64,000 nt of DNA, from positions 89,530,001 to 89,594,000 of the forward strand of contig CM059432.1 in NCBI GenBank assembly GCA_030390025.1. Reading direction: 5' to 3'. The notes under the pieces are model-generated. The model made no database searches. It saw only the letters and a list, made by a program, of their open reading frames with translations, and was not told the origin of the DNA. The position numbers and the translations under genes are program-made. Within the stretch, counting starts at the first letter, position 1. Each line of letters begins with the position of its first letter. Shown one piece after another: positions 3,619 through 51,908 of the stretch. This stretch comes from Squalus acanthias (Eukaryota).

Positions 3619-3984
3619 CCTTGCTACTTTATAACTGTACTCAGGCCTTTGTCAGGTTCCACCCTCCTCTAGCAACCTTCAAATTACTTGAGTGCAAGGC
3701 TGCTTTGAATATCAGCGCTGGAAACAAGTCATCAATGACGTAATCAGACCCCTACCATTTAATAGGGCTGGGAAACATGCATGAGTCTTTCAATTGAGGC
3801 CATGAAGTTAAAGGTGCTCTGAACAATGCGCTGCTCAGAACATCGCATTCCTGACCCGCTATGCAGCCCGCACGCACCCAACCCAACTCCAAGGTAAAAA
3901 TTCTGACCATAATGGTTGCAAGCAAGAAATTATATTGGTAAACAGACAAATTAGTCATTGGGGTGAAATTTGTCTTGGCCGATG

Positions 3985-5684
3985 GCGTAAAGTGGGCGGA
4001 GTGTAATGTGGGCAGTGTGTTAAGTGTTACATGGGTGGAGTGTTAAGTGGGCGGAGTGTTAAGTGGTGGTGTGTAAAATGGGTGGAGTGTAAAATGGGTG
4101 GAGTGTAAAATGGGTGGAGTGTAACATGGGCTGAGTGTAACATGGGCTGAGTGTAACATGGGCGGAGTGTAACATGGGTGGAGTGTTAAGTGGGTGGAGT
4201 GTAACGTGGGCGGAGTGTAATGTGGGCGGAGTGTAAAGTGGGCGGAGTGTAAAGTGGGCGGAGTGTAAAGTGGGCAGAGTGCAACATGGGCTGAGTGTAA
4301 AGTGGGCGGAGTGTAAAGTGGGTGGGGTGTAAAGTGGGCGGAGTGTAACATGGGCTGAGTGTAAAGTGGGCGGAGTGTAAAGTGGGTGGGGTGTAAAGTG
4401 GGCGGAGTGTAAAGTGGGCAGGGTGTAAAATGGGCGGGGTGTAAAATGGGCGGGGTGTAAAGTGGGCTGAGTGTAAAATGGGCGGGGTGTAAAGTGGGCG
4501 GAATGTAAAATGGGCGGGGTGTAAAATGGGCGGGGTGTAAAGTGGGCGGGGTGTAAAGTGGGCTGAGTGTAAAATGGGCGGGGTGTAAAATGGGCGGGGT
4601 GTAAAGTGGGCGGGGTGTGAAGTGGGCTGAGTGTAAAGTGGGCGGGGTGTAAAGTGGGCGGAGTGTAAAATGGGCTGGGTGTAAAGTGGGCGGGGTGTAA
4701 AATGGGCTGGGTGTAAAGTGGGCGGGGTGTAAAGTGGGCTGAGTGTAAAATGGGCGGGGTGTAAAATGGGCGGGGTGTAAAGTGGGCGGGGTGTGAAGTG
4801 GGCTGAGTGTAAAGTGGGCGAGGTGTAAAGTGGGCGGAGTGTAAAATGGGCTGGGTGTAAAGTGGGCGGGGTGTAAAATGGGCTGGGTGTAAAGTGGGCT
4901 GAGTGTAAAATGGGCGGGGTGGAAAGTGGGCGGGGTGTAAAGTGGGCTGAGTGTAAAATGGGCGGGGTGTAAAGTGGGAGGGGTGTAAAGTGGGCGGAGT
5001 GTAAAATGGGCGGGATGTAAAGTGGGCGGAGTGTAAAATGGGCTGTGTGTAAAGTGGGCGGAGTGTAAAATGGGCTGGGTGTAAAGTGGGCGGAGTGTAA
5101 AATGGACTGGGTGTAAAGTGGGCGGAGTGTAAAATGGGCGGGGTGTAAAGTGGGCGGAGTGTAAAATGGGCGGGGTGTAATATGGGCGGAGTGTAAAATG
5201 GGCTGGGTGTAAAGTGGGCGGAGTGTAAAATGGGCTGGGTGTAAAGTGGGCGGAGTGTAAAATGGGCGGGGTGTAAAGTGGACGGGGTCTAAAATGGACT
5301 GGGTGTAGAGTAGGCGTGGTGTAAAGTGGGCGGGGTGTAAAGTGGGCAGGATGTAAAGTGAGCGGAGTGTAAAATGGACTGAGTGTAGAGTAGGCATGGT
5401 GTAAAGTGGGCGGGGTGTAAAGTGGGCATGGTGTAAAATAGGTGGGGTGTAAAATGGGCAGGGTGTAAAGTGGGCGGGGTGTAAAGTGGGCGGAGTGTAA
5501 AATGGGTGGAGTGTAAAATGGGCGGGGTGTAAAGTGGGCGGGGTATAAAGTTGGCGGGGTTTAAAGTGGGTGGAGTGTAAAATGGACTGGGTGTAGAGTA
5601 GGCGTGGTGTAAAGTGGGCGGGCTGTAAAGTGGGCGGGCTGTAAAATGGGTGGGGTGTAAAGTGGGTGGAGTGTAAAGTGGGCT
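3985..5684. repeat. 16-bp G-rich tandem array, consensus GTGTAAA(G/A)TGGGCGG(A/G), about 105 units
   Basis: Direct 16-nt periodicity. Preceded by the TIR-like GGGGTGAAATTTGTCTTGG at about 3960. Confidence 0.97.
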
Positions 5685-5977
5685 GCCGATTCACTCGCCC
5701 CAATCTTGCACTGCGCATAGTAAAGCTTTTCATAGCCAATAAAGTGCTATTGGAAGTGTAGTCACTGTTGTTTTGTAGGCAAGCATGGCAGCCAGTGCGC
5801 ACACAACAAAGTCCCACAAACAGCAATTAAATAAATGTGCAGTTAATCTGTTTTTTGCAGTGTTGGCTTGAGATAAATGTTGGTCAGGACAACAGGAGAA
5901 CTTCCATGCTTTTGTTCAAATAGTGCCATGGAATCTTCTGTGTTGACCTGAGTAGGCAGATGGGCCCATGTCTTAAT

Positions 5978-11810: not shown

Positions 11811-13590
11811 CCTATTCAGTTGTCATGTTAGCGTAGTCCTCACTAACTCTAACAATAGGAAACCAGAACTATTAAACAATAATGAAAAGTTGAATATATG
11901 TTGACATTAATATTGGATTTTTAGCTCTGAATCCCAAATTATTCTAGTCAGTGACCCCTTTTGAATCAACAAATTTCTGTATGATACAACCACGCTTACT
12001 ATGTATGAAATGTATTGACACTAATCTTACTCACCAATGTTCCTTATAACTGTCCAATCTGTAAAATTCGTAACTCATGTTAAATGAACTTTATAGCAAG
12101 ACAGATTTGTTTAATAGATGAAGAATTAGATTGCAGGCTCTTGTTAACCAACATGATTAAAAGAGAATTCTCTACATAAATTCTTAACTATTGCCGAAAG
12201 CCTCCACAGCTGTCATAAGGTAATAAGTCCTACTTTCTTAGTCTTGCCCATATCTTCATTTTGTCCGGTTGTCCAATCAGTGGTATCCCAAAAATTCCAG
12301 TAAAACATTAAGCAGGTTAAGAAATAGCACTAGGTTGAGCAACAACTGTTATTTTTATACAACATATATGTGAGTTTATTTACCAATGATAATTTATTTT
12401 TTGTTACCAGTACGTTTACTTTCTCTGAATATGAAGGCCTAAGAAAGAAGTAAACAAACATACTTGACCAAGCAAGATAAATCAATTTTAGAATCTTTCT
12501 ATTCTAACATTGCCACCTTGTTAAAAAGCCTAACCAAAGTGCCTGCTGAGAGAGTGAAAATCGTGGGCTGAAGGTACTCTCCCTTCAACTTCTCCAGGTT
12601 AGGAAAAACACCACAAGGGTAAGGGATTAGTTGTTGGAGTTAGTGAGGACTACAATAACATGGCAACTGCTTAAGATATGTGTTAAGGTTAGGGAACATG
12701 TCCCTGTGATGAAAATAAGAGATCATCACATTTCAAATCATAAGAAAGTCAATATTTTCTTTTAATATTTATTTGTAAGAGGGAATGCTCATCTAGTTGA
12801 TTATACAAAGTTGCCAGTAAACTCAAAAAGCAAATATGATGAAATGGAAAGCTTCATAACCGGCTGTGCTAATTGCAACCTTGGTTACTTATCTAGTTCT
12901 ATGAATGGTCAGTTGAGTCAGACAGAGTCTAGAGGGCCTTATAATGTTAATGATTTTTAATTGCAAAGCCATCAGCGTTAATCAAAACTCTCCCTGATAA
13001 TCTTCTGTTTAGCTATCAGTCTACAAATAGGTACTTTAGGAAGTGTTTCTTTCTGAATAGTTGGGGGCGATTTTCCCAGCCCCGAGGAGGCGGGTTTGGA
13101 GGCGGGACAGTTGGCAAAATCGCAAAAAGTGAGGGCGGGTTCGGAACCCGCCTCCAATCCGCCTCCGTGCAATTTTGCCGGTGGCGGGTTTGATAGGTGC
13201 GATTCGGTCCCGCCTTCCTCAGTCGGGAGAGGTAGTTAAGACCCTTAAATAGTCATTAAGGGCCTCTATAATCCTATTTTGACAAACCTTTGTTATTTTG
13301 CCACTTTTTGTGCATGTCGCACGGCCCTCCTAAACCATGCCAGCTAATCCTGGCGGGTTGACAAGTGGGTAGGCCTCCTCACAGCTGCAGCTCCACCATT
13401 AAAACGGAGCTTTCATCAGGGATCAGTTGCAGGTGGCAGAACTTTTGTTCCAAAGGTCTTTCAGAACTTTTAGCAGGCCTACCAAAGTCGGAGGTGCTGC
13501 AGCTTCTATCTCTCAACTGTGGGACCTCCTTGGAAGACCCTCTCCCTGCTTGGACTGAGCGCTTCCCCAACGGAGGTATCTGCCAGCAGC

Positions 13591-14813
13591 ATGGGAACCA
13601 TTTATTTCCTTTCACCGTGGACCTCAGAGTCGGATGAGGAGCAGCCACGGCAGCAGCAGAACCAGGCAGCTCAGCAGCAACAGCAGCAGGAGCCCCAACC
13701 TCCTGCTCACCCACCTGATGCTGCACAGGGCAGAAGGCGCCAGCACATGGAAGCACGTCACCGCAGGAGATACCCCCCTCTCAGAGTTTACAGACAGAGG
13801 ATGAGCTACCTCAACATGAGTGAGCAGCAGTGCCAAAGAAGGATGAGACTTTCGCGAGAGGTTGTCGGAGTCATCTGCGCACTGCTGCAGCAAGACCTGG
13901 TGCCCAGAGGAACGGGTGGACACCCCTTACCAGTGGCTGTCAAAGTCACCACCGCACTCAACTTTTTTGCCTCAGGCTCCTTCCAGGGATCATCAGCAGA
14001 CATCAGCGGCATCTCCCAGTTGGCCACCCACAGTTGCATCAAGCAGGTTACCGATACCCTTTTCGCAAAGGCGCACAATTACATCCACTTCTCAAGGGAT
14101 CAAGCAAGTGTAACCACGCGTTCAGTTGGCTTTGCAAATATGGCAGGCTTGCCAATGGTGCAGGGCGTTATAGACTGCACACATGTGGCCCTTAGGGCAC
14201 CCCATCACAACCCAGCTATCTTTGTCAACCACAAGGGCTTCCACTCCCTCAACGTACAGCTGGTGAGTAACCACAAGAAGGAGATTTTGCATGTTTGCGC
14301 CAAGTTCTGTGGTAGTTGCCATGACTCATTCATCCTGCGGAACTCTTGTGTTCCTCCGCTCTTCAATCCGCCAAACCAACTTAACGGATGGCTCCTTGGT
14401 GACAAGGGCTACCCCTGAAGAAGTGGCTAATGACGCCGATCAGGAGGCCAGCTAACGAGGCTGAAGAGTGCTACAACACCAGCCACATTTCGACCAGGTC
14501 CATCATCGAGCAAACCATTGGATTGCTGAAGATGTGATTCCGATGCCTTGACAGATCAGGTGGAGCCCTGCAGTATTCAGCAGCCAGGGTCTCCAGAATG
14601 GTTGTGGTCTGCTGTGCACTGCACAACATGGCACAGCGTCGTGGCTTGCAGCTTCCTGATGAGCAAGTGGCTCAGTTCATAGCCTCCTCAGATGATGAGG
14701 AGGAGGAGGAGGAGGAGGAGGACTGAGCGGTGGCGTATCAACCAGCAGCAGCACGCGAGCACATAGCTGCCCATGATGCAAGGGATGCACTCATCCTGGT
14801 CAGATTTGCATAG
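13591..14813 (+). pseudogene. HARBI1-like transposase (1-bp deletion after GDKGYP, internal stop near 14535)
   Basis: ATG at 13591 matches the copy-1 start. [25 protein letters not shown] and LLGDKGYP are present, then [19 protein letters not shown] in another frame. Confidence 0.93.
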
Positions 14814-15070
14814 GTTGCCCAATGTGGCACATGTGCTTGGCTCCTTCTTAACACATGATAGACAATGGACATGACTCTCTGGCCTCCTTTCATTCTGACC
14901 ACAAACCTGACCACGCAAGTGTCGCGGAGCCCGCAATGTGGAGCTGCCTAAGGCGAAATAACAGATGCAATCACGCCAACAGTTTGCCATCACCTCATTT
15001 TTATACATTCAAACAGGGATGGCATTTCATCAATAAACAGAAACAATCACCCAAGTGCCTACCCCTGTGA

Positions 15071-17018
15071 CTAATGGTGCTTTATTTTTCTCTTACGCGT
15101 GCTCCTACGTGGTGCTCCCCCTGTGGCTTCAGCAGAAGTGGAGGCCCCTTGCTCACTTTCATGCTGCTCCTGCTTCAATACCTTTGGCGGGCATCCTCTG
15201 GGTTTCCGAGCCTGTGAGGGCTCGGCAAACGTCTGCTCATCCTGCGGCAGTGCAGGGGCTGAGACGCCCACCTCAGTTGGGTGCGGACTCTGGTGGGGCT
15301 CTGACCAAGGGCTACGGAGTGGCATGGAAGTGTGAGCGCTTGGAGAGGAGCCTCCACTTCCTTGTTCTCTGTCACCAACTTCCCTATCATGGGTCAGGTC
15401 TACCTCAGCGCTTGCAAGTGGCTTGAGAGCACATTGCTGCACATCAGGGGGGGCCACGGGGAGCTGTATCTGCACTGGCAGTCCTACTCAAAAAGACTTC
15501 CATGAAGCTTTGGTTTCTCTGCTCAATAGCTGCCCATTGCTCCTCCAGAGATGTCAGTCTATTCTGAACATTCACCATGTTTTTCAGACACTGGCGACTT
15601 ATTTCCTCTATGGCCGTAGCCAGCCTTTCCACGGAGGTTGCCATCCTTTCCGTGGTGGTGCGTTGATGCTCCATTGCCTCCACAAAGGCACTGCTCATGT
15701 TAGAGTTGGACTCCTCCATCCTCTCCACACTCGCAGTGACCCTGGAGACAAAACCTGTCAGAGACTCCTGCACCTGCTCCTGGAGTTCCAGCACCACTCT
15801 CCTTCTGGATGGACCCAGAGGCACAGGGTCCACATGCAGCAGAGCAATGCTCAGAGAGTCCTGCGACCTCCGACGAGGACTCTCCACTGCTGTCCCTGTC
15901 TCCACCACCTGTTGATACTCACTTGTGAGATGTGATACACACGGTGACAACACCACTCTATGTCCCAAAGGTCGCACCGAGGTGTGCGTATCTGCGCTGG
16001 TGCTGGGTGCGCTTAATTCTGCTGACCCTGCGTCCTCAGAGGTTGCAGGTTCCCGAGGAGTCTTGCTGCTCAGCCTCTTCCTCGTCGACAGTGTGGGGGG
16101 GGGGAGCTCTGTGGATGGTCCTGTGGGGGAGTAAAGGCATGGGTTAGACATTTGACGGAAGTGTGGCATGCACATGCAATAGTGCAGATGCTCAAGTGGC
16201 ATTCTAATAATGTACACTAGCAGCCATTTCAGTCACTCAAGCAGTGTAAATGAGAGAGACGCAAAACTATTCTGTCACCAGCTTGGTCTGCATCGCCCGT
16301 CTGTCCGTCCCCCACTTCCACCTCCACCTCTGCGCCGGTGATGTCCATGGCCTCCTCTTCAGCCTGGGTGAGAAGGGCGAGGGAAGGTGGCCATCCTCCT
16401 GTCTTTGCCCTTTCCCTTCTATTGTGGGCTCTCTTTTCCTGCAGTGAGGGAGACAAGTGGAGTTGGAGTGAGAATGATGGAGTGAGTGTAGAGAGTCCAG
16501 AGCATAGATGCTTAGAAGGAGACAAAGATGGAGTGAGGTTCCATGTCCAAGGGCTCTCCCTGTGCATTGTTAGTCGTTGTCATTGCATAACATTGAAAGG
16601 GAGTGCGAGGGCAGTATAGTCGAATAGTGAAGTGATTGAGTTCATAGAGTGAGAGGGATGGTGAAGAGTGCAAGGGTTGTAAGGGTAAAGTGGGATGTGT
16701 AGGAGGAGGTTGACAATGCAGTGTGCTGGTGATGAGAGGAGAAGGGGAGCAGAAGGAGGGTCAAGCTGAAGGTATACTCACTTTGCCTGATCTTACAAGG
16801 TCATTGAATCTTTTACGGCACTGCAGCCATGTCCTGTTGCACACCGATCTGGAGGTTATATCCCTTGCCAGCTGGACCCACACAGCCTTGGTTTCTTTGG
16901 GAGGCCTCTTCCTCCCAGATGAGGGGAAGAGCACCTCCCTGCTGGCTCGCGCCCCCTCAACCAGCATACCCAGCGCCTCATCCAAAAACCTCGGGGCCCT
17001 TGCCTTGGAGCTGGCCAT
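15071..17018 (-). pseudogene. Myb/SANT-like gene, exons 17018-16782, 16438-16279, 16120-15071; one frameshift in the G-run near 15447
   Basis: GT/AG sites with compatible phases (237 nt phase 0, 160 nt phase 1). RAPRF...RTWLQCRKRFNDL trihelix motif. Exon 2 has the same 160-nt length in copy 4. Confidence 0.9.
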
Positions 17019-17361
17019 TCTTCAAGGAGATAACAGTTTGGAGGTGGTGCACCATCGACCAAAAACCAGTGGAATGAGCCAAGGCAGCAAGCAGCCCTTA
17101 AATGAAGCTGGATAAGTGACGTCAGCAGAGGCGAGTTTCAGTCCCAAAAGTCTAATTGGCCCAGGGGAACCCACACCTCTGAAAGTAACTGGCCAATTAG
17201 GGGAAAATCGCAATTTTTTCTCACCTGACAGTGGAGGCGGGTTTGGAACCCACCCAAACCGAAACCCGCTTCCAAGCCACCTCCATTGGGAAAATTGCGC
17301 CCGATGTGTTCAAATGTGCATGACAGTTATTTGTCAATCACCCTATTTTCTCCTGAGATTG

Positions 17362-27550: not shown

Positions 27551-27724
27551 AATACTGATGACCATGTTGTTAGGGAGTAAAAGTGCAGCTGTCTATCTCT
27601 ATGTGACCCTGGCCCTTGGGGGGCCGATATAAATGTTACAGATTTCTAAATCTGCTTATAGGTAGATAGCAGAAAATCTGATCCTTCTGCTAATTGTACT
27701 GATACAGTTTTATGCAAATCAAAA

Positions 27725-30700
27725 AGGCCGGGTTGAGGGTGGGGGTCAGACACTCGGGAGGTTCAGACATCGCGGGGGGGTCTGGCATCGCGGTGGGTGG
27801 GGGGCAAATCAGACATCACGGGGGGTGGGAGTCGGCCAATTGCAGGGGTCCGATCGCGTGGAGGTAAGCTTGTTGGGCCTGAAAGAAACACTCCTGCTCC
27901 TCCTGGCCCACAAACAGTGCTGTAAATACACTTACCTCATGGATCCATCCCTTCTTGCCTTTTACCGGCTGTGATTTCCGAGGCCTGGGATTCCCAGCTT
28001 CCACGAGTTAAAAATAAAAATGCTGTTAAAATGGAGGCACGCAGCCTCCTTAAAAGATTTCAGTGGCAGACGCCCCTCCTGAGAGCGGGTTGGTCGCCTG
28101 CCACCCGACTGCCTCCGTTAAAACCGGGAGTGGGTGGGTTGGAGGCAGGTTAGAGGTGGGTTGGGGTTGGGGGCGGGTTGGAGGTGGGTTGGGGTTGGGG
28201 GCGGGTTGGGGTGGGGTTGGGGGCGGGTTGGGGTGGGGTTGGAGGCGGGTTGGAGGCAGGTTGGAGGTGGGTTGGTGTTGGGGGTGGGTTGGGGGTGGGT
28301 TGGAGGCGGGTTGGAGGTGGGTTGGAGGCGGGTTGGGGGCGGGTTGGGGGCGGGTTGGGGGCGGGTTGGAGGTGGGTTGGAGGCGGGTAGGGGGGCGGGT
28401 TGGGGCGGGTTGGGGGCGGGTTGGGGGCGGGTTGGGGGCGGGTTGGGGGCAGATGGAGGCGGGTTGGGGGCAGGTTGGAGGCAGGTTGGTGGCGGGTTGG
28501 AGGCAGGTTGGAGGCGGGTGGGGGTTGGGGTTGTAGGCGGGTTGGGTTGGGGTTGGGGTTGGAGGCAAGTTGGGGTTGGAGGCGGGTTGGGGTTGGCGTT
28601 GGGGGCGGGTTGGGGTTGGGGTTGGGGGCGGGTTGGGGTTGGAGGCGGGTTGGGGTTGGGGTTGGGGGCGGGTTGGGGTTGGGGGCGGGTTGGGGGCGGG
28701 TTGGGGGCGGGTTGGAGGCGGGTTGGGGCAGGTTAGAGGCGGGTTGGGGGCGGGTTGGAGGCGGGTTGGAGGCGTGTGGGGGTTGGGGTTGGAGGCGGGT
28801 TGGGTTGGGGTTGGGGTTGGAGGCAGGTTGGTGGCGGGTTGGAGGCAGGTTGGAGGCGGGTGGGGGTTGGGGTTGGAGGCGGGTTGGGTTGGGGTTGGGG
28901 TTGGAGGCAAGTTGGGGTTGGAGGCGGGTTGGGGTTGGCGTTGGGGGCGGGTTGGGGTTGGGGTTGGGGGCGGGTTGGGGTTGGAGGCGGGTTGGGGTTG
29001 GGGTTGGGGGCGGGTTGGGGTTGGGGGCGGGTTGGGGGCGGGTTGGGGGCGGGTTGGAGGCGGGTTGGGCAGGTTGGAGGCGGGTTGGGGGCGGGTTGGA
29101 GGCGGGTTGGAGGCGGGTGGGGGTTGGGGTTGGAGGCGGGTTGGGTTGGGGTTGGGGTTGGAGGCAGGTTGGGGTTGGAGGCGGGTTGGGGTTGGCGTTG
29201 GGGGCGGGTTGGGGTTGGGGTTGGGGGTGGGTTGGGGTTGGAGGCGTGTTGGGGTTGGGGTTGGGGGTGGGGTTGGGGTTGGGGTTGGGGTTGGGGTTGG
29301 GGGTGGGGTTGGGGTTGGAGGTGGGTTGGGGTTGGGGGTTGGGTTGGGGTTGGGTTGGGGTTGGGGTTGGAGGCAAGTTGGGGTTGGAGGCGGGTTGGGG
29401 TTGGCGTTGGGGGCGGGTTGGGGTTGGGGTTGGGGGCGGGTTGGGGTTGGAGGCGGGTTGGGGTTGGGGTTGGGGTTGGGGGCGGGTTGGGGTTGGAGGC
29501 GGGTTGGGGTTGGGGTTGGGGTTGGGGATGGGTTGGGGTTGGAGGCGGGTTGGGGTTGGGGTTGGGGTTGGGGGCGGGTTGGAGGCGGGTGGGGGTTGGG
29601 GTTGGAGGCGGGTTGGGTTGGGGTTGGGGTTGGAGGCAGGTTGGGGTTGGAGGCGGGTTGGGGTTGGCGTTGGGGGCGGGTTGGGGTTGGGGTTGGGGGT
29701 GGGTTGGGGTTGGAGGCGTGTTGGGGTTGGGGTTGGGGTTGGGGTTGGGGGTGGGGTTGGGGTTGGGGGTGGGGTTGGGGTTGGGGGTGGGGTTGGGGTT
29801 GGGGGTGGGGTTGGGGTTGGGGGTGGGGTTGGGGTTGGGGGTTGGGGTTGGGGTTGGGTTGGGGTTGGGGTTGGGGTTGGGGTTGGGGGTGGGGTTGGGG
29901 TTGGGGGTGGGGTTGGGGTTGGGGGTGGGGTTGGGGTTGGGGGTGGGGTTGGGGTTGGGGGTGGGGTTGGGGTTGGGGGTTGGGGTTGGGGTTGGGTTGG
30001 GGTTGGGGTTGGGGTTGGGGTTGGGTTGGGGTTGGGGTTCGGGTTGGGTTGGGGTTGGGTTGGGGTTGGGGGTGGGTTGGGGTTGGGTTGGGGTTGGGGT
30101 TGGGTTGGGGTTGGGGTTGGGGGTGGGTTGGGGTTGGGGTTGGGGTTGGGGTTGGGGTTGGGTTGGGTTGGGGTTGGGGTTGGGTTGGGGTTGGGGGTGG
30201 GGTTCGGGTTGGGTTGGGGTTGGGGTTGGGGTTGGGTTGGGGGTGGGTTGGGGTTGGGGTTGGGGGTGGGTTGGGGTTGGGGTTGGGGTTGGGGTTGGGG
30301 TTGGGTTGGGTTGGGGTTGGGGTTGGGTTGGGGTTGGGGTTGGGGTTGGGTTGGGGTTGGGGGTTGGGGTTGGGTTGGGGTTGGGGGTGGGTTGTGGTTG
30401 GGGTTGGGGTTGGGGTTGGGTTGGGGTTGGGGTTGGGGTTGGGGTTGGGGGTTGGGGTTGGGTTGGGGTTGGGGGTGGGTTGTGGTTGGGGTTGGGGTTG
30501 GGGTTGGGTTGGGGTTGGGGTTGGGGTTGGGTTGGGTTGGGGTTGGGGTTGGGTTGGGGTTGGGGTTGGGGTTGGGTTGGGTTGGGGTTGGGGTTGGGTT
30601 GGGGTTGGGGTTGGGTTGGGGTTGGGGTTGGAGGCGGGTTGGGGTTGAGGTTGGGGTTGGGGTTGGGGTTGGGGTTGGAGGCGGGTTGGGGTTGGGGGTG

Positions 30701-32428
30701 GGGTTGGGGTTGGAGGCGGGTTAGGGTTGGGGGTGGGGTTGGGGTTGGGGTTGGAGGCGGGTTGGGGTTGGGGGTTGGGTTGGGGTTGGGGGTGGGTTGG
30801 GGGTGGGGTTGGGGTTGGGGTTGGGGGTGGGGTTGGGGTTGGGGTTGGGGTTGGGGTTGGGGTTGGGGGTGGGTTGGGGGTGGGGTTGGGGTTGGGGTTG
30901 GGGTTGGGGTTGGGGTTGGAGGCGGGTTAGGGTTGGGGGTGGGGTTGGGGTTGGGGTTGGAGGCGGGTTGGGGTTGGGGGTTGGGTTGGGGTTGGGGGTG
31001 GGTTGGGGGTGGGGTTGGGGTTAGGGTTGGGGGTGGGGTTGGGGGTGGGGGTGGGGTTGGGGATGGGTTGGGGTTGGGTTGGGGTTGGGGGTGGGTTGGG
31101 GTTGGGTTGGGGTTGGGGTTGGGGTTGGGTTGGGGTTGGGTTGGGGTTGGGGTTGGGGGGTGGGTTGGGGTTGGGGTTGGGGTTGGGTTGGGGTTGGGGT
31201 TGGGGTTGGGGTTGGGGGTGGGTTGGGGTTGGGGTTGGGGTTGGGGGTGGAGGCGGGTTGGGGTTGGGGGTTGGGTTGGGGTTGGGGGTGGGTTGGGGGT
31301 GGGGTTGTGGTTGGGGTTGGGGGTGGGGTTGGGGTTGGGGTGGGTTGGGGTTGGGTTGGGGTTGGGGTTGGGGTTGGGGTTGGGGTTGGGTTGGGGTTGG
31401 GGGTGGGGTTGGGGTTAGGGTTGGGGGTGGGGTTGGGGTTGGGGGTGGGGTTGGGGTTGGGTTGGGGTTGGGTTGGGGTTGGGGGTGGGTTGGGGTTGGG
31501 GGTGGGGTTGGGGTTGGGTTGGGGTTGGGTTGGGGTTGGGGGTGGGGTTGGGGTTGGGTTGGGGTTGGGGTTGGGGTTGGGGGTGGGTTGGGGTTGGGGT
31601 TGGGGTTGGGTTGGGGTTGGGGTTGGGGTTGGGGGTGGGTTGGGGTTGGGGTTGGGTTGGGGTTGGGTTGGGGTTGGGCTGGGGTTGGGGTTGGGGGTGG
31701 GGTTGGGGTTGGGGGTGGGTTGGGGTTGGGGTTGGGGTTGGGGTTGGGGTTGGGGGTTGGGGTTGGAGGCGGGTTGGGGTTGGGGGTTGGGTTGGGGTTG
31801 GGGTCGGGGTTGGGGTTGGGGTTGGGGGTTGGGGTTGGGGTTGGGGTTGGGGTTGGAGGCGGGTTGGGGTTGGGGGTTGGGTTGGGGTTGGGTTGGGGTT
31901 GGGTTGGGGTTGGGTTGGGGTTGGGGTTGGGGTTGGAGGCGGGTTGGGGTTGGGGTTGGGGTTGGGGTAGGGGTTGGGGTTGGGTTGGGGTTGGGGTTGG
32001 GGTTGGGGTTGTGGGCAGGTTGGGGTTGGGTTGGGTTTGGGGTTGGGGTTGGGGTTGTGGGCAGGTTGGGGTTGGGGTTCGGGGCGGGTTGGGGTTGGGG
32101 TTGGGGTTGGGTTGGGGTTGGGGTTGTGGTTGGGGTTGGAGGCGGGTTGGGGTTGGGGTTGGGGTTGGGGTAGGGGTTGGGGTTGGGTTGGGGTTGGGGT
32201 TGGGGTTGGGGTTGTGGGCAGGTTGGGGTTGGGTTGGGGTTGGGGTTGGGGTTGGGGTTGTGGGCAGGTTGGGGTTGGGGTTCGGGGCGGGTTGGGGTTG
32301 GGGTTGGGGTTGGGTTGGGGTTGGGGTTGTGGTTGGGGTTGGTGTTGGGGTTGGTTTGAAATTTAACATTTTTTTACCTTCCCACCTGGCCACAACCCAC
32401 CTCTCCTTGGGGGTTAAATTTCCACCCC
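27725..32428. mobile_element. Harbinger-type MITE hosting a 4.2-kb satellite; left TIR not found
   Basis: 27930-28135 and 32355-32400 are collinear with 51605-51900. The right end GGGGGTTAAATTTCCACCCC is followed by CAG|GTCTTT. Confidence 0.75.
28130..32355. repeat. G-rich telomere-like array: GGAGGCGGGTT / GGGGGCGGGTT units grading into (GGGGTT)n
   Basis: Directly visible. Only a few TTAGGG units (for example 30721, 30928, 31021, 31415). Confidence 0.97.
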
Positions 32429-32444
32429 CAGGTCTTTAAGAACC

Positions 32445-32830: not shown

Positions 32831-33011
32831 AGCTGACAAACCAACCAACAAACACAGCTAAATCCAAGGGATCTATGTGAATTAGATGTAAATAACACAC
32901 AAGCTGAATTTAAAATGGCCTCAGTGATATGTAAATCAAAAGAAAGATGACCGCTTGGCTAATTCTGAAACAAACACATGTAATAAGCATCACAAACAAT
33001 GCATCCTGAGG

Positions 33012-36645: not shown

Positions 36646-38351
36646 ACACAAGGGTCAGATAGCAGGTACAACTAAGCAGCCACTACAATATCAGATGCGG
36701 CATTCACAGTTACAGGGCCATTCTCTGACCTAGTACAAAGAGGTAGAAGGGCAGCACCATTACAAGAGGTGCCCATAGACATCCAGCAACAAATGTCTAG
36801 TTCACTGCTGCTTCAAATAATAGTGGCAATATGGATTATCATAAAATGAAGGCATCATGCCTCTTACTAGAGTATCAGGCATTAACCTGCATTATTTAAT
36901 ACCCATAGTCACATACCATCTGCACGTTAGTTGAATGAAATCAATTTATGTTCATGAACAACATGGAGTTGTTAGTAGGGACTAGAATGACCATATGCGT
37001 GTCATTTATGATGTCACATACTTCAGAACAACTTGACTCCTGGTAAAACTACTGCCATCATCGTTCCATGGGGAAAGTGGCAAAAGGGAAAAAGTGTTTC
37101 CTGTCACCAGCTTGATGTATCATAAACACAACAGACTGATTTATTTGGCAAAAATGCACCTTCACAGTGACCAGCAGAGCAATCCCTGTGGTCAATGTAT
37201 ATCCAGCTAGAGGGGCTCGCATAATTCAGTCACTGCCTCCCTCCCATGTGATGTGCAGGTGGTGAAGACAGGTCTCCTGATATACTAGCTGGCTCTGCCA
37301 AGGTTTACAGCACTGGCTGCTGGGGTAAAGGTAGGTGCAAACAGAACGCCTCTAATGTAATCTCACCTGCAGAAATTCATCTTCCTTTCACAAATCTCTG
37401 AGTGCAAGAGGATTTTCCATCCTCGGATTGCAGCAACTGAAATTGCAGCTGGCAGCAATAATGTAATGGGATAGCCAGATGGGGAAAAAGTAATGCAACA
37501 GTAAAAATGCACCAATAAACAAACTGCAACAGGAAACAATACAGCACATCATTGAGAATCCAACTCAAAGGCCAGATTGTGCCTCCTCTCCGTTGCTCAT
37601 TTTATATGGAGCTGAAAAGCTATTGGTGTATTTCCAACAAATAAAATATGGGGAATTGTAGCTGACAGCTATTTACTTGAATTTACATGGACTTCAGGGA
37701 TTTAAGGAGATTCTTACATGCCTTGTGCAAGAGCACTCTGAGCCTATTTTTAATACTGCAGGGAAATCAAACACAGTACATAAAGGGCAGGGAACAGATT
37801 TGTGGCCTACTCACCTGCTTCTCCAACCAGAGGTGCCTGCACTACTGGCACATCTGATCAGAAGATCCATGATATGTAGTGTAATGTGAGAAGAAAAACA
37901 ATATCATAATAAAAGGTACTACACTCTAGTTATATAGGGTTATGAATGGCCAGCATGAATTTGCATAAAGGTTTCACTTTTGTGTTTAACAGCAGCTTTA
38001 ACCACAGCAAGAATCTTACGACCATCTTTAAGAATCAATTCAATTGCCCGCGAAAATGGGCGCAGGGATCATGATGTGCGATTAACCCACGCCCATTCAA
38101 ACTAATGCAGGAAGCATGTAAACTTCGTGCTACCTACTAATTAAAATGATCGTGGTGTGCAGCCCAGCGCTAAACGCACTGCTGATTGGCTGCACTCTCA
38201 GCAGGGGGCCCAAGTTTGTGCGAGGCTAGCACCAATTAAAGCTAGCCTGCACTTCTTAAAGCCAGCCTGCACCTCTTAAAGGGGGAGGGGGATGTAGTTT
38301 GACAACACCAGGTGCTGGAATTCATTCCAGAAAGCAGTTTCAACTGGGAAA

Positions 38352-44437: not shown

Positions 44438-44946
44438 TCGCTAGCAGAACAGGGGAATAAAGAAAAATAAAGGGGGCTGATTCTGTGATCTGCTGCTCCC
44501 AGCAAGGCGTAGCACTCACAGGATGCACATCTCAAGAAATTGCAGGTCCGCAGTCTGTGAACATCAGAGATTGCCAGCCCGAATGCACTGTCTGCAAGTG
44601 GAGCTACCCACTGAGAGTACTGGATCACAGAATCTCCCCTGAGGTGACCAGGTTTAAAGCATTTAAAAATAAATCAAATTGTGTTACAGGTATTTTATTT
44701 TTGTAGTTTGTGGTTAACTTCTGGGATTGATTTCATTGGAAGAGAATATCGGACGGGTTGCTGATTCGCTTTCGCGCCACCGCCAAAGAACAATTTCAGC
44801 CCCATATTGTTTCCGATGTGTGGGGGAGTATTAAATGTTGATATGGCACACTGATTTTCTTTGTTCAGTTCCCTGTACAAGTAGCATGAGTATTTGCATA
44901 ATGTTGTTACATATGTTGACCATATTTATTTTTGGTCCATTTTATC

Positions 44947-45078: not shown

Positions 45079-45468
45079 TTACATGCCTACCTGACAAATT
45101 TGCAGGTTTGATTTAATTAAAAATTTTATTTAGCTTTTCATAGGAAACTTTATTTTGTATTGCAAGATTTATAAGGAAAGGGAGAAAAAGTGGAGGTGTG
45201 GCGACAACAATGACAAATGGAGTATAAGTGGTCTAATCTTAGAGATTCAGGGCTCGATTTTACCAGCCCTGAGGAGGCGGGTTTGGAGGCAGGTCAGGTG
45301 GTAAAATGGCTAAAAATGCCGGCGGGTTCCGATCCCGCCGTCAACCCGCCTCTGTGCAACTTTGTCAAAGGCGGACTTGCAGACTCCCGTTCGGTCCCGC
45401 CACCAAGCGGCGGGATAGGCCCTTAAGGCAGTTAACTGGTTGTTAACTGCCTGTATAATCCTGTTTTG

Positions 45469-46377
45469 CACCAACACCTGGAGCCCAGAGGAGCGGGTGG
45501 ACACCCCTTACCAGTGGCTGTCAAAGTCACCACTGCCCTCAATTTTTTTGCTTCAGGGTCCTTCCAGGGCTCATCAGCAGCATTTCCCGGTCGGCCGCAC
45601 ACACCTGCATCACGCAGGTAACCGATGCCCTCTTTGCCAAGGCGCCCAATTACATACACTTCTCCACGGATCAAGCAAGTGTAACCGCGCGTGCGGTTGG
45701 CTTTGTAAATATGGCAGGCTTGCCAAGGGTGCAGGGCATTGTAGACGGCACACATGTGGCCCTTAGGGCACCCCATCACAACCCAGCTGTATTTGTCAAC
45801 CGCAAGGGCTTCCACTCCCTCAACGTGCAGCTGGTGTGTAACCACAGGAAGGACATTTTGCATGTTTGCGTGAAGTACCCTGGCAGTTGTCATGACTCGT
45901 TCATCCTGCGCCAGTCTAGTGTGCCTCTGCTCTTCAATCCACCAAACCAACTTTCCAGGTGGCTACTTGGAGACAAGGGCTATCCCCTGAAGACGTGGCT
46001 GATGACGCCGTTGAGGAGCCCATCGAACAAAGCTGAGGAGCACTACAATGCAGGCCACATTTCCACCAGATCCATCATCGAGCAAACCATTGGCTTGCTG
46101 AAGATGCGATTCAGATGCCTTGATAGATCAGGTGGAGCCCTGCAGTAGTCAGCAGCCAGGGTCTCCAGAATCGTCGTGGTCTGCTGTGCACTGCACAACA
46201 TCGCACAGCATCGTGGCTTGCAGCTGCCTGAGGAACAAGTGGCTCAGCGCATATCTCCTCAGAAGAGGAGGAGGAGCAGGAAGAGCTTGCGGAGGCGGAT
46301 GCGCCAGTTCCAGCAGCACGCGAGCACATTGCTGCCCATGATGCAAGGGATGCAATAATCTTTGCCAGATTCGCTTA
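45469..46377 (+). pseudogene. HARBI1-like transposase lacking its 5' part, with an internal stop at 46146
   Basis: [34 protein letters not shown] and [14 protein letters not shown]. About 600 bp are missing relative to copy 2. Confidence 0.92.
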
Positions 46378-46653
46378 AGCAGACGAATCAAACAAATGTG
46401 GCTGGCACCTTCTTAACACACCATACACAATGTACAAGAACCTGTGGTTTCCTATCACTCTGACCAACATCATTACAAATGCAAGTCGCCCTGAGCCCTC
46501 AATGTGGAACTTCCATTTCCGAGATTACATAGGCCAGAACGTCAACTGTTTGCTATCACTTCTGTTTAATCCATTCACAAAAGGATGACAATGTCAAATA
46601 TTAAAGAAAACAAAAGACAACAGAAAAGAACACCCAAGTGACTACCCTTGTGA

Positions 46654-49444
46654 CTAATTGTGCTTTATCTTCCTCTTACGTGTGCTTCTACGTGGTGCCT
46701 CCCCTGTGGCTTCAGCAGATGTGGAGGCACCTTGCTCACTTTCATGCTGCTCCTGCTTCGACACCTTTGGCGGGTGTCCTCTGGGTTTGCGAACCTGTGA
46801 GGGCTCGGCAACAGTCTGCTCCTCCTGCATCTGTGCGGGTGCTGAGACGCCTAACTCAGTTTTTTTTTATTCGTTTATGGGATCTAGGCATCGCTGGCAA
46901 TACCAGCATTTATTGCCATCCATAGTTGCCCTTGAGAAGGTGGTGGTGAGCCGCCTTCTTGAACCGCTGCAGTCCGTGTGGTGAAGGTACTCCAACAGTG
47001 CTATTAGGTAGGGTGTTCCAGGATTTTCACCCAGCGACGATGAAGAATCGGCGATATACTTCTAAGTCAGGATGGTGTGTGACTTGGAGGGGAACCTGGA
47101 GGTGGTGGTGTTCCCATGCACCTGCTGCCCTTGTCCTTCTAGGTGGAAGAGGTTGTGGGTTTGGGAGGTGCAGCCGAAGAAGCCTTGGCGAGTTGCTGCA
47201 GTACATCTTGTAGATGGTACACACTGCAGCCACGGTACGCCGGTGGTGGAGGGAGTGAATATTTAAGGTGGTGGATGGGGTGCCAATCAAGCGGGCTGCT
47301 TTGTCCTGGATGATGTCGAGCTTCTTGAGTGTTGTTGGAGCTGCACTCATCCAGGCAAGTGGAGAGTATTCCATCACAATCCTGACTTGTGCCTTGTAGA
47401 TGGTGGAAAGGCTTTGGGGAGTCAGGAGGTGAGACACTCGCCACAGAATACCTAGCCTCTGACCTGCTCTTGTTGCCACAGTATTTATGTGGCTGGTCCA
47501 GTTAAGTTTCTGGTTAATGGTGACCCCCAGGATGTTGATAGTGGGGGATTCGGCGATGGTAATGCCATTGAATGTCAAGGGGAGGTGGTTAGACTCTTGC
47601 TTGTTGGAGATAGTCATTGCCTGGCACTTCTGTGGCGCGAATGTTACCTGCCACTTATCAGCCCAAGCCTGAACATCGTCCAGGTCTTGTTGCATGCGGG
47701 CAGGGACTGCTTCATTTTTTTTTTCTGTGGAGTTGTGAATGGCGCTGAGAAAGTTGGGTGAGGACGCTGGTGGGGCTCTGATCGAGGGCTACTCAGTGGC
47801 ATGGGAGTGTGAGCGCTTGGAGAGGAGCCCCCACTTCCTTGTTGCCTGCCACCAACATCCCTCTCATGGGTCAGTCCCACTTCAGTGCTAGCAAGTGGCT
47901 TCACAGCACCTTGCTGCACATCAGTGGGGCCATGAGGACCCGTATCTGCACTGGCAGTCCTACTCAAAAGGACTTCCATGAAGCTCTGGTCTCTCTGCTC
48001 AATAGCTGCCCATCGCTCCTCCAGAGATGTCAGTCTATTCTGAACATTCACCATGTTTTCCAGACTCTGGCGACTTATTTCCTCCATGGCTGTAGCCAGC
48101 CTTTCCACGGAGGTTGCCACCCTTTCTGTGGTGGTGCATTCGCTCGCTATTGCCTCCTCAAAGGCACTGCTCATGTTAGACATGGACTCCTCCATCCTCT
48201 CCACACTCGCACTAACCCTGGAGACAAAACCTGCCAGAGACTCCTGCAGCTGTCCCTGGAGTTCCAGCACCTGCTCTCTTTCTGGATGGACCTGGAGGCA
48301 CAGGGTCCACATGCAGCTGAGCAGAGCTGGGAGCGCCCTGCGGCCTCCAATGAGGACTCTCTACTGCTGTCCCTGTCTCCACCATCAGCTGATGCTCACT
48401 TGTGAGCTGTGATACAACAGGTGACAACGCTACTCTATCTCCCGAAGGTCCCACCGAGGTGTGCGTATCTGCGCTGGTGCTGGGTGCGCTTAATTCTGCT
48501 GATGCTGCGCCCTCAGAGGTTGCAGGTTCCTCTGAGGAGTCTTCTGGCTCTGGCTCTTCCCCCTGGACAGTGGGGAGAGTGGGGGAGTAAAGGCATGAGT
48601 TAGACATGTGATATTAATGTAGCATGCACTGAAATTGTGCAGATGAACATCAGAAGCCATATCAGTCACTCATGCAATGTAAATGAGAGAGATGCAAAAC
48701 TATTCTGTCACCAGCTTGCTCTGATGCACCCATCTGTCTGTCCCCCACTTCCAGATCCTCCTCGGCTCCAACGATCTCTAGGGCCGCCTCCTCAGCGCTG
48801 GTGAGAGGGGCTATTAAGGGTGGCCCTCCTCCGGTCTTCACTCTTTCCCTCTTATTGTAGGCACTGTTTTCCTGCAATGAGGGACACAAGTGGAGTTTGA
48901 GTGAGAATGATGGAGTGAGTGTAGAGAATCCATAGCATAGATATTTAGAAGGAGACAAAGATGGAGTGAGGTCCCAATACCATGGGCCCTCCCTGTGTGT
49001 TGTTAGTTGTTGTCATTGCATAACAGTGATAGGGAGTGTGAGGGCAGCATAGTCGAATAGTGAAATGATTGTGTACATAGAGAGAGAGGGATGGGTAAGG
49101 GTGCAAGGGATGCAAGGATGTGTAGAAGTAGGTTGACAATGCAGAGTGCTGGTGCTGAGAGGAGATGGGGAGCAAAATGAGGGTAAAGGTGATGGTATAC
49201 TCACTTTTCCTGTGCGGACAAGGTCATTGAACCTCTTTCGGCACTGCAGCCAGGTTCTGCTGCACGTTAATCTGGAGCTGACCTCCTGTGCCAGTTGCAG
49301 CCACACAGCTTTGGTCTGCTGGGGAGGTTTTTTCCTCCCAGAGGAAGGAAAGAGCACCTCCTTTTGAGCTCTGGCTCCCTCCACTAGAGCATGGAGGGCA
49401 TCATCATCGAAGCGGGGTGAGGTCTTGGGCCTTGAGCTAGACAT
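46654..49444 (-). pseudogene. Myb/SANT-like gene (exons 49444-49205, 48871-48712, about 48565-46654), exon 3 disrupted by a LINE
   Basis: RTWLQCRKRFNDLVRTGK|GTGAGT; collinear with the copy-2 gene. Confidence 0.88.
46862..47751 (-). mobile_element. CR1-group LINE 3' fragment of a distinct family, inserted in Harbinger copy 4
   Basis: ORF 47027-47695 (WADKWQVTFAPQKCQ, IYKAQVR.MEY). AGTT duplicates at 46858-46861 and 47752-47755; the empty site is seen in copy 2. Confidence 0.9.
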
Positions 49445-50615
49445 TTCAGGAGTATCAAACAATTAGCACAGTAGTCACTCTGGAAGTACATAGGGAAAAA
49501 ATGAACCAAGGCTGCTTGGAGCCCTTAAAAGCAGCTGGATAAATGACGTCAGCAGGGGCGAGTTTCAGACCCAAAAGACTAATTGGGCCAGGGGAGCGCA
49601 CACGCAGGGAATCAATTGCCCAATTAGGGCAAAATCGCAAATTTATCCCGCCTGACAGCGGAGGCGGGAGCGGGACCCGCCGACCACCTGACCCGCACCA
49701 ACCCGCCTCTATTAGTAAAATCGCGGCCTCAAAGTCTTACAATCCTTAGGCAGAATAAACCAAATTTAAGATTGCTTATAGCTGTAAAAACATAGCTATG
49801 GAATAAGAAAAGACCATTAGCTCCATCAAACCAGCTCCTTCCAACATGTAAGTTCGCACTTTCAGGGACTCTATCCAACCTGTTTGATATCCTGAAGGGG
49901 GTGAGTAACCATAGGTACAGTTTCCAAAAACAGAAGGTTCTACAAAATTCACGCACCAGCTCTGGAGATAATTTAGCAAAGAAATTCGCAGATTTAGATC
50001 TGATAGTGCAATTTCTTATTACTCTGTCAGGTTGCATTCCAGAGAAACATGGTCCCTTTAAAACTGCTGAAAGCACCAGAGTCCGGCAGCTGCGGGGATT
50101 TTCTGCACTCCACCCTTCTCCCAGCGTGCTCCATGGTGCAGACAGAAACCCCAATGGGAGCCTGTCAAAAATATGTAAATTTGGCTGGCTCCGGGAAATT
50201 TGCCAGGGAAAGACGCATCTGTCAAGCAAATGGAATTCCCATCCTCCTGAAGAGGAAAATCCCTGGCTTAAGTCCCAAATCATCACTCCTATTCTTCTCA
50301 AACTCCTATCAAATGCATTAATGTTCTTTTTAAAGTAATGTATTCAAAAATAGCACAGTCAAATGTTCAGCTACCCAATTTCAAAACCTGCATTCCTCAA
50401 AAGAGTGCCAATTATATTGGATCCGACAGTGTGTTTGAGAGCAGCAATAAGGGTGAGATCAATATTAGAGATGAGATCAATAGCTCTGGAATTTCCAGCA
50501 CCCGCCTCCTTCCCACCCCCAAACCTCTCCACCCCCCTCTCCTCTTTTAAAACCCTCCTTAAAATCCACCTCTTTGACCAAGCTTTTAGTCACTCCTCCT
50601 AATAAAAAAGAGAAT

Positions 50616-51908
50616 GGCCGGAATTTTAATCGGGAGGTGGATAGGGAGCGGGGTGGGGATTGGGGGGGCGTGGCTAGGAAGCGGTCGGGAAACCCGGGAG
50701 AATGGGTTTCGTGCAGGCCCTGCTGAATTTAACGGCAGGGACTGATTTGTATTTCAAATCTCTGTTTCCCGCCCGCAGCTAGCCAGATTGAGAGGCTGGC
50801 TGGCTGTGGGCATGTAGGCCTGTGTCACTAGGCTGCAGAAAGGAGGGAGGGAGGGATCAGGTGGGTCCGGGGGGGGTGGTCAGGGGCCGGAGGAGGATCG
50901 GGGTGGGGGAGGGAGAGAACATCGGGGCTGGACTCTGAAGCATCGGAGGGGAGGGAGAGAGGATCGGGGCCGGAGCATCTGAGGGGAGGGAGAGAACATT
51001 GGGGTCAGAGCATCGGCGGAGAGGAGGGGGGAGAGGGAGACAACATCCTGGGAGAGAGACAGAACATCAGGGCTGGAGCATCAGGGGGGAGGGAGAGAGG
51101 AGCGGAGCCAGCCTGAGGATCATCGGTCAGGGGGGGAGAGAGGAGCGGAGCCAGCCTGAGGATCATCGGTCAGGGGGAGAGAGGAGCGGAGCCAGCCTGA
51201 GGATCATCGGTCAGGGGGGGAGAGAGGAGCGGGACCGGCCTGAGGATCATCGGTGGGGTGGGCGGGGGGTGGGGGGGGGAGTCCAGGAAGGTGATCGGAG
51301 GCCTCGTGGGGGGGGGGATCGGAGGCCTTGTGGGGGGGGAATCGGAGGCCTCGTGCGGGGAGATCAGAGGCCTCGTGGGGAGGGATCAGAGGCCTCGTGG
51401 GGGGGGATCAGAGGCCTCGTGGGGGGGTATCAGATGCCTCGTTGGGGGGGAATCGGAGGCCTCGTGGGGGGGGATCAGAGGCCTCGTTGGGGGGGGGGAT
51501 CAGAGGCCACGTGGGGGGGGATTCAGAGGCCTCGTTGAGGGTGTCCGATCGCGGGGGTGTGGGTGAGGCAGGGACGCTGGATCCAGGAGGTAAGTGTAAA
51601 AGCACTTATCGCCTGGATCCAGAAGTCCTTGCCTTACTTTAGATGACGGCTTCCCCGAGGCCTGCGGAACCCGACCAGCCAGAGTTAATTTTGCAATGCT
51701 GGTTAAATCTGAGGCATGCCAGTCTCATTATAATATTTAAATAAACTACCCGCCACCTGGGAGCGGGTTGGCTGCTCACTCCCCACCACCCCCTGCCCCC
51801 CCCCCCCCCCCCGGTCCCTCCTCCGTTTAAACCGGAAGTGGGAGGGTTGGAGGTGGGTTGTGGTCGGGATTCAGTTTTTTAACACTTTAACCTCCCACCC
51901 CACCCCAA
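50616..51908. mobile_element. Harbinger-type MITE with internal minisatellites
   Basis: Starts with the TIR-like GGCCGGAATTTTAA. The distal part is collinear with 27930-28135 and 32355-32400. Confidence 0.75.
51095..51540. repeat. Two adjacent minisatellites: about 41 bp (GAGAGGAGCGGAGCCAGCCTGAGGATCATCGGTCAGGGG) x4, then about 20 bp (GATC(A/G)GAGGCCTCGTGGGGGG) x about 12
   Basis: Direct repeats at 51095-51255 and 51290-51540. Confidence 0.9.

What the first reader, a model, noticed from the sequence alone, without database searches (positions are those of the whole stretch)
13063..13225. The satellite seed equals the subterminal motif of the autonomous Harbingers: possible arrays of Myb/SANT binding sites
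Seen: GGCGGG/CCCGCC, often as GGAGGCGGGTT, is repeated in both orientations at both ends of copies 2 and 4 (13085-13215, 17233-17270, 45270-45415, 49660-49710). The same motif builds the left half of the 28-kb array, and GGGCGG is the core of the 16-bp satellite. Known: the zebrafish Harbinger3_DR Myb-like protein binds short repeated subterminal motifs. Inference (speculative): these satellites are large arrays of the element's own protein-binding site and could act as decoys or chromatin-recruitment platforms, a transposon protein/satellite pair.
Basis: inference. Interest (0 to 1): 0.7.

Follow-up and report, generated by a model that had tools for sequence, protein, structure and literature searches.

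The report
Repeat array grown inside Harbinger MITE
A 4-kb G-rich repeat in a shark-like genome grew out of a short motif near the end of one copy of a very common miniature jumping gene; that motif is probably where the jumping gene's own protein binds, but repeats born this way are already known, and nothing here shows that this one acts as a decoy.

Summary
The end motif is real: 17 GGCGGG lie in the four 170-bp ends of Harbinger copies 2 and 4, against 16 in 57 kb of other DNA, and its CpGs are preferentially kept between the copies. It is probably the Myb-like protein's site (by analogy; untested). The array at 28 kb is 4.2 kb long. It expanded in place from a ~17-bp piece about 80 bp inside the right end of an abundant non-autonomous Harbinger-type element. 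An unexpanded sibling lies at 50.6-51.9 kb, and 146-203 contigs per run carry the unexpanded continuation. Only 13% of array bases still lie in an intact motif; most has drifted to (GGGGTT)n. The 1.7-kb 16-bp array does not contain this motif. It sits in a different element, and its core is an Sp1-type box resembling the ends of copies 3 and 5. A decoy role is unsupported: the family's apparently thousands of copies outweigh one array. Precedents exist (Medicago Harbinger subterminal repeats, Arabidopsis VANC/VANDAL and TnpA motif clusters). The scan had not noted this array before, but it had noted other transposon-born arrays, and probably this MITE family, elsewhere in this genome.

The parts
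13063..17302 (.). Harbinger copy 2 (decayed autonomous element; convergent transposase and Myb-like genes; TIRs of about 14 bp; flanking triplets GTT/GAT, 2 of 3 alike)
13063..13232 (.). Copy-2 left end: TIR plus 6 GGCGGG sites, 4 forward and 2 inverted
17133..17302 (.). Copy-2 right end: 1 exact site plus degenerate copies, and CCAAT/CRE/TATA-like words upstream of the Myb-like gene (element names recalled)
13750..14415 (+). Transposase N-terminal part, Pfam DDE_Tnp_4 E=3.8e-15; the frame stops at 14416 and does not resume in frame
16782..17018 (-). Myb/SANT-like exon (79 aa), Pfam Myb_DNA-bind_5 E=1.2e-8; modelled fold closest to Zeste-DNA (5CQQ, TM 0.74) and GT-1, though E>0.001
45250..49728 (.). 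Harbinger copy 4 (decayed; TSD TCA/TCA); 6 sites at the left end and 4 at the right end
27730..28130 (+). Body of a high-copy non-autonomous Harbinger-type element (left end missing; start approximate). Decayed motif copy at 28070-28079, inverted, restored by the family's majority letters
28131..32357 (+). G-rich tandem array expanded in place: 11-mer units (GGAGGCGGGTT and variants) plus GGGGTT at left, mostly (GGGGTT)n at right; 131 G4-type motifs; internal duplications at offsets 342, 472 and 203
32358..32428 (+). Right end of the same element: degenerate inverted motif copy and TIR; aligns with the copy-4 and copy-2 left ends (p=0.0035, 0.007), not with the copy-5 end (p=0.93)
32429..32437 (+). 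Flank CAG+GTCTTT, an exact match to the right 9 nt of the printed Harbinger3_DR target consensus; the only occurrence in the window
50616..51900 (+). Unexpanded sibling of the same non-autonomous family (left TIR present, right TIR missing); single seed at about 51840-51870
3984..5685 (+). 16-bp array (about 105 monomers, unit GTGTAAARTGGGCGGR); a different motif, with 52 perfect Sp1-type decamers
3960..3983 (+). TIR-like left arm of a second, different MITE family flanking the 16-bp array (right arm 5686-5722)
44690..44803 (-). Half copy of the MITE family that flanks the 16-bp array (left arm p=0.0005, right arm p=0.025)
38030..38209 (+). Myb-side end of copy 3 (second clade) with an inverted pair of AAYGGGCG; best window match to the 16-bp core

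Best explanation
The 28-kb array is a minisatellite-scale expansion that arose in place inside one old copy of an abundant non-autonomous Harbinger-type element. (1, shown) One Harbinger clade (copies 2 and 4) clusters a GGCGGG(TT) motif, often as inverted pairs, within about 160 bp of each TIR. (2, inferred, about 65%) This motif is the site of the element's Myb-like protein, as in zebrafish Harbinger3_DR. (3, shown) A high-copy non-autonomous family has similar ends and carries the motif. (4, shown) In the copy at 27.7-32.4 kb, a ~17-bp subterminal piece (motif 11-mer plus the next 6-mer) was multiplied to 4.2 kb, with the element's sequence resuming on the far side. (5, inferred) Replication slippage and unequal exchange, helped by G4-prone sequence, drove the growth, and the array then simplified towards (GGGGTT)n, losing the motif; it is most likely neutral. 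The left 1.6 kb may well bind the protein if that protein is expressed, as a by-product. (6) The 16-bp array is a separate, parallel event in a different MITE family with a different motif (origin in that MITE: likely, about 70%).
For: The left flank is homologous to the unexpanded sibling at 50616-51900 up to the seed, and the right flank to the sibling beyond it. In contigs of 4 runs from 4 coded organisms, 3,944-7,278 contigs per run lie on the left flank. At 28151, 146, 203, 189 and 171 contigs leave the array with one continuation that matches the sibling at 51860 (26 of 30 letters) and the array's own right junction at 32347 (about 23 of 30 columns); both comparisons by eye. Family letters at 28072 and 28074 (84-89% and 56-68% of depth) restore an inverted motif at 28070-28079. 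Right TIR plus a target-like flank. Motif-context CpGs are kept in 8 of 12 sites between copies 2 and 4, against 3 of 20 other end CpGs (p=0.005) and 37 of 125 interior CpGs. Motif density falls from 36.9 to 4.9 per kb along the array. Summed depth falls to 1.4-7.5% of the seed bin just past the seed, so most family copies appear unexpanded.
Against: The element has no recognisable left TIR, so a matching TSD pair could not be shown. No contig spans the array, so it is unknown whether the orthologous copies in organisms B and C are expanded. Base-level motif conservation is only borderline after correcting for how the mask was chosen (40 of 42, p=0.04; 53 of 60, p=0.32). Array-like depth of 7-38 times the unique level in organisms B-D may mean other expansions exist, though contig depth is not a copy number. 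No binding data. The 16-bp right arm matches its relative only weakly (p=0.025), and the two arms do not align with each other (p=0.85).
Confidence: 0.75

Rival explanations
1. Functional protein/satellite pair: the arrays are maintained as decoys or chromatin-recruitment platforms for the Harbinger Myb-like protein.
For: 71 intact 8-mers in one array; CpG observed/expected 1.25 in the left part against 0.34 for the window; precedents in plants (VANC/VANDAL; TnpA MC4 cluster); the domain folds like Zeste and GT-1 DNA-binding domains.
Against: 87% of array bases are outside an intact motif, and the right 2.7 kb is 98% G/T. The 16-bp array has no GGCGGGTT. The parent family appears to number in the thousands with several sites each, so one array adds little (order of magnitude only). 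The copy-2 transposase frame is broken and the other window copies are fragmented. High CpG may only reflect a young expansion.
Confidence: 0.08
2. The end motif is a host transcription-factor site (Sp/KLF- or E2F-like) in the promoters that both ends provide for the convergent genes, not a Myb-like site. The array origin is unchanged.
For: Both ends are CpG-rich (o/e 0.89-0.98 at three of four); the Myb-gene end has CCAAT/CRE/TATA-like words.
Against: 0 matches to the (recalled) Sp1 decamer at any of the four ends. Sites lie directly inside the TIRs at both ends and as inverted pairs. They are kept in a non-coding family that needs no promoter and are replaced by another motif in the copy-3/5 clade.
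Confidence: 0.2
3. The array is an interstitial telomere-like insertion or an imported satellite whose likeness to the element ends is chance.
For: Most of the array is (GGGGTT)n, a telomere-like unit, with 131 G4-type motifs.
Against: Only 4 TTAGGG against 408 TTGGGG. The element sequence runs into and out of the array in register with unexpanded copies.
Confidence: 0.04
4. The array length is an assembly artefact of low-complexity reads.
For: Low complexity; no contig spans it.
Against: It has structured internal duplications with shared variants. Array-type depth is about 100 times the unique level in a run of organism A from a second sample and study (weak, not a copy number).
Confidence: 0.04

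Closest known systems
Medicago truncatula PIF/Harbinger subfamily MtPH-A6-4 (PMC2213677; passages read)
   Same: Harbinger derivatives with a variable number of tandem repeats in the subterminal regions, each repeat holding a short repeated motif; in extreme cases filling the space between the TIRs.
   Different: There the unit is 60 bp, 2-35 copies, in 18 of 23 members. Here the unit is about 17 bp decaying to 6 bp, 4.2 kb long, apparently in a small minority of copies, G4-prone, in a vertebrate.
Harbinger3_DR of zebrafish (Sinzelle et al. 2008; primary paper not held; seen only as cited in PMC9710019, PMC2836001, PMC3016246, PMC9392472; passages)
   Same: Two-gene element; the Myb-like protein binds a 9-bp subterminal motif; the target consensus matches the 28-kb element's right flank at 9 of 9 bases.
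   Different: The letters of its 9-bp motif were not printed in the passages seen, so identity with this motif was not tested; no array is mentioned in them.
VANC/VANDAL of Arabidopsis (PMC5735166; passages)
   Same: A transposon-encoded protein binds a short motif that accumulates inside cognate elements by tandem-repeat formation.
   Different: A different transposon family and protein, with binding and anti-silencing shown. Here binding is inferred and the array loses the motif.
MC4 motif cluster bound by TnpA-Spm1 (bioRxiv 10.64898/2026.08.24.746577; abstract, passages and supplementary text 3 read)
   Different: 44 kb, 2-kb units, outside the element, binding shown by ChIP.
Tandem-repeat-containing MITEs and MITE-amplified factor sites (PMC3879986, PMC5950925; passages)
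   Same: Internal MITE repeats as proposed seeds of satellites; MITEs multiplying protein-binding motifs.
   Different: Host-factor sites or unrelated core repeats rather than the element's own subterminal motif.

Membership tests
PIF/Harbinger autonomous element (copies 2, 4) | DDE transposase of the Harbinger type | tested here: met
   DDE_Tnp_4 E=3.8e-15 for copy 2; copy 4 is 79-81% identical by tblastn
PIF/Harbinger autonomous element (copies 2, 4) | Second gene with a Myb/SANT-like domain | tested here: met
   PF13873 E=1.2e-8 and 6.2e-8; the 10 relatives looked up of 32 found are all shark or ray proteins, several named MYPOP-like or NAIF1-like
PIF/Harbinger autonomous element (copies 2, 4) | Short TIRs and a 3-bp TSD | tested here: met
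   TIRs at all four ends; TSD TCA/TCA for copy 4; GTT/GAT (2 of 3) for copy 2
Harbinger Myb-like binding site | Repeated, conserved subterminal motif | tested here: met
   (conservation from 2 copies only)
Harbinger Myb-like binding site | Bound specifically by the element's Myb-like protein | not testable with these tools
   needs SELEX or EMSA
Non-autonomous Harbinger element with subterminal VNTR | No coding capacity, high copy number | tested here: met
   no tblastn hit for the transposase or Myb queries in 27.7-32.4 kb; thousands of contigs per run
Non-autonomous Harbinger element with subterminal VNTR | Both TIRs and a matching TSD | tested here: inconclusive
   right TIR and target-like flank present, left end missing; the sibling has only the left TIR
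Non-autonomous Harbinger element with subterminal VNTR | Repeat number varies among copies at the same subterminal position | tested here: met
   unexpanded sibling and 146-203 contigs per run
VANC/VANDAL-type protein-repeat system | Motif kept and accumulated in arrays across cognate copies | tested here: inconclusive
   one expanded copy seen; motif lost over most of it; other expansions not resolvable in contigs
VANC/VANDAL-type protein-repeat system | Protein binding changes chromatin or silencing | not testable with these tools
   none
Classical satellite DNA | Very long arrays, abundant genome-wide | tested here: inconclusive
   4.2 and 1.7 kb here, so minisatellite scale; genome not held
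Sp1 GC box (consensus recalled) | KGGGCGGRRY decamer at the element ends or in the 28-kb array | tested here: not met
   0 matches; by contrast 52 in the 16-bp array
Interstitial telomeric repeat | (TTAGGG)n or a decayed form of it | tested here: not met
   4 TTAGGG against 408 TTGGGG

The most novel reading that the evidence does not exclude
Two Harbinger clades each have their own Myb-like site (GGCGGGTT-type for copies 2/4, AAYGGGCG-type for copies 3/5), and each clade's MITE family recurrently expands exactly its own site into kilobase arrays across the genome. This would be a vertebrate VANC-like co-evolution of transposon protein and tandem repeat, in which bound protein promotes the expansion or the arrays titrate or recruit it, and in which G4- and Sp1-rich arrays are then open to host co-option.
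Probability: 0.1. Interest if true: 0.6.

Novelty: new member of a known kind. Interest (0 to 1): 0.27.

Why it matters
As found, it is a clean example of a tandem array born from a transposon's subterminal motif, with the parent element and an unexpanded sibling 20 kb away, and it predicts a testable binding site for a shark Harbinger Myb-like domain. It would matter more if such expansions were recurrent and clade-specific, because that would extend the plant protein-repeat systems to vertebrates and give a route from transposon cis-sites to satellites.

Tried and rejected
No genome is held, so no genome-wide motif census was possible. Sinzelle et al. 2008 is not held, and its motif letters were not seen in citing passages. 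Literature searches listed no paper on shark Harbinger MITE arrays; the library lacks most subscription journals, and no supplementary files were opened. Searching for longer homologues of the 79-aa exon found 0 of 104 candidates; the profile-free library search then found 32. A PDB sequence search gave only lectin matches at E>=0.03, rejected as noise. The fold search had no match at E<=0.001, and it cannot name the bound sequence. The Codebook and MSANTD2 passages gave no motif letters for related domains. Single-strand folding of the four ends: only one has z=-3.0, the others -0.8 to -1.5, so a hairpin role was rejected. No RNA holder was listed. Look-alike searches in the scan's notes returned nothing. 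The element at 57729 aligns poorly beyond a short block and was not counted as a firm family member. A candidate left TIR at 27617 was rejected: orthologous contigs carry other letters there and depth is at the unique level. The table of other letters showed 40 of 103 rows, so family letters at the seed itself (28131-28151) were not seen. The ortholog state of the array is left open.

Full report
Context. No whole genome is held. The window carries five decayed Harbinger elements. Of the 32 relatives found for the copy-2 Myb exon, the 10 I looked up are all shark or ray proteins, so this is a cartilaginous-fish-like genome. Copy 2 spans 13063-17302 and copy 4 spans 45250-49728, the latter with a TCA/TCA duplication. 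The transposase matches DDE_Tnp_4 but stops at 14416. The Myb exon matches Myb_DNA-bind_5 and models as a trihelix most like the Zeste and GT-1 DNA-binding domains (TM 0.74 and 0.70, E>0.001).

The end motif is real. The four 170-bp ends hold 17 GGCGGG (25/kb) against 16 in 57,387 bp of background. Three of four ends beat all 2000 dinucleotide shuffles, while the copy-2 right end, with one hit, does not (p=0.13). Interiors and the ends of copies 1, 3 and 5 are not enriched. The two copies are related, so these are not four independent observations. Between copies 2 and 4, non-motif end positions are 72-73% identical, interiors 84% and motif positions 88-95%. After correcting for mask choice this is borderline (p=0.04 and 0.32). 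CpGs in motif context, however, survive in 8 of 12 sites against 3 of 20 elsewhere in the ends (p=0.005) and 37 of 125 in the interior. None of the end sites matches the recalled Sp1 decamer. The zebrafish Harbinger3_DR Myb-like protein binds a 9-bp subterminal motif (PMC9710019, passage; primary paper not held). By analogy, a Myb-like site is the best reading (about 65%, inferred). Host promoter sites remain possible, because both ends also drive the convergent genes.

The 28-kb array. This is a 4,227-bp array at position 28 kb, not a 28-kb array. Its left flank aligns with a non-coding TIR element at 50616-51900 right up to a single seed, and its right flank aligns with that element beyond the seed. 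The right end carries a TIR and a degenerate motif and aligns with the left ends of copies 4 and 2 (p=0.0035, 0.007) but not with the copy-5 end. It is followed by CAG+GTCTTT, identical to the right 9 nt of the Harbinger3_DR target consensus printed in PMC3016246 (passage) and found once in the window.

Contig evidence. I laid contigs of 4 of the 24 listed runs, from four coded organisms, on 27560-28190. Between 3,944 and 7,278 contigs per run were laid, with summed depth of 1e4-1e5 against 9-32 on unique DNA; this is no copy number, but it marks a very abundant family. At 28151, 146-203 contigs per run leave the array with one common continuation. By eye it matches the sibling at 51860 at 26 of 30 letters and the array's far junction at 32347 at about 23 of 30 columns. 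Majority letters at 28072 and 28074 restore an inverted motif at 28070-28079. Single contigs of organisms B and C bridge unique flank and element, so the insertion is old and shared. No contig spans the array, so its state there is unknown. Depth just past the seed is 7.5% of the seed bin in organism A and 1.4-1.9% in the others, so expansion appears to be the exception. The array therefore grew in place from about 17 bp, the motif 11-mer plus the next 6-mer, which fits the period of 17 reported by Tandem Repeats Finder.

Fate of the motif. Of 71 intact 8-mers, 58 lie in the first 1,570 bp (36.9/kb) and 13 in the last 2,657 bp (4.9/kb). Only 13% of bases are in an intact 8-mer, and the right part is 98% G/T. 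Internal duplications and 131 G4-type motifs fit slippage and unequal exchange (inferred). It is not a vertebrate telomere remnant (4 TTAGGG against 408 TTGGGG). A selected decoy should keep the site; this array is losing it, and its 71 sites are small beside a family of apparently thousands of motif-bearing copies.

The 16-bp array. About 105 monomers span 1.7 kb. GGGCGG is in the core, but GGCGGGTT never occurs, the best match to the 11-mer has 3 mismatches, and 52 cores are perfect Sp1-type decamers. Its left flank starts with a TIR-like end at 3960 and aligns with a half element at 44690-44803 (p=0.0005). The right flank matches that element weakly (p=0.025), and the two flanks do not align with each other. 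Outside the array, AAYGGGCG occurs 4 times, 3 of them at the Myb-side ends of copies 3 and 5 and 1 in a small TIR element at 62852; the best profile match to the core is the copy-3 end (found after the fact, few sites). So the 16-bp array most likely arose in a second MITE family from a second motif, perhaps that of the copy-3/5 clade. This parallel is the most interesting residue of the finding, but it rests on one array per clade.

Comparison with what is known. Subterminal tandem repeats of variable number in Harbinger derivatives are described in Medicago (PMC2213677, passages). Transposon proteins whose motifs form tandem arrays are described for VANC/VANDAL (PMC5735166, passages), and for TnpA with a 44-kb motif cluster of unknown function (bioRxiv 10.64898/2026.08.24.746577, supplementary text 3). 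MITE-internal repeats as satellite seeds and MITE-amplified factor sites are discussed in PMC3879986 and PMC5950925 (passages). Passages of PMC2836001, PMC9392472, PMC11601247 and bioRxiv 10.64898/2026.05.26.728016 added background only. My searches listed no report of this shark case; the library is incomplete and no supplementary files were opened.

Verdict. This is a new member of a known kind: a tandem array born from a Harbinger MITE's subterminal motif, probably neutral (0.75). A functional decoy or platform is unlikely (0.08). Interest 0.27; the clade-specific, recurrent-expansion reading has probability about 0.1 and would deserve 0.6.

Noticed in passing
window 38030-38209, 62583-62752, 62852-63017: A second end motif, AAYGGGCG, marks the copy-3/5 clade and a small TIR element; 4 of 4 hits outside the 16-bp array fall in these ends or elements.
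   Followed up: partly
window 3984-5685: The 16-bp array is a run of 52 perfect Sp1-type GC boxes with CpG o/e 1.25 and could bind host Sp/KLF factors (consensus recalled).
   Followed up: partly
window 27860-27935 and 51575-51600: Splice-donor-like and antisense donor-like words in the MITE body. The summed contig depth peak is at 27890-27911.
   Followed up: partly
window 28125-28133 and 51832-51840: An ETS-like word (name recalled) lies just before the seed in the sibling and in the family's majority letters.
   Followed up: no
window 50939-51550: The sibling element has its own small internal expansions (43-bp x4, 22-bp x11), so this family is generally prone to tandem growth.
   Followed up: partly
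window 774-859 and 46863-47750: Other repeats have inserted into the copy-1 transposase gene and the copy-4 Myb-like gene region.
   Followed up: no
window 5978-6580, 33006-33190, 57729-58140: Further TIR-bearing or palindromic small elements; the one at 57729 shares a short block with the 28-kb element.
   Followed up: no
P0003, P0021, P0023, P0028, P0031: Some relatives of the Myb domain have 2-4 matching stretches, i.e. tandem Myb-like domains; P0003 is a sawshark protein.
   Followed up: no
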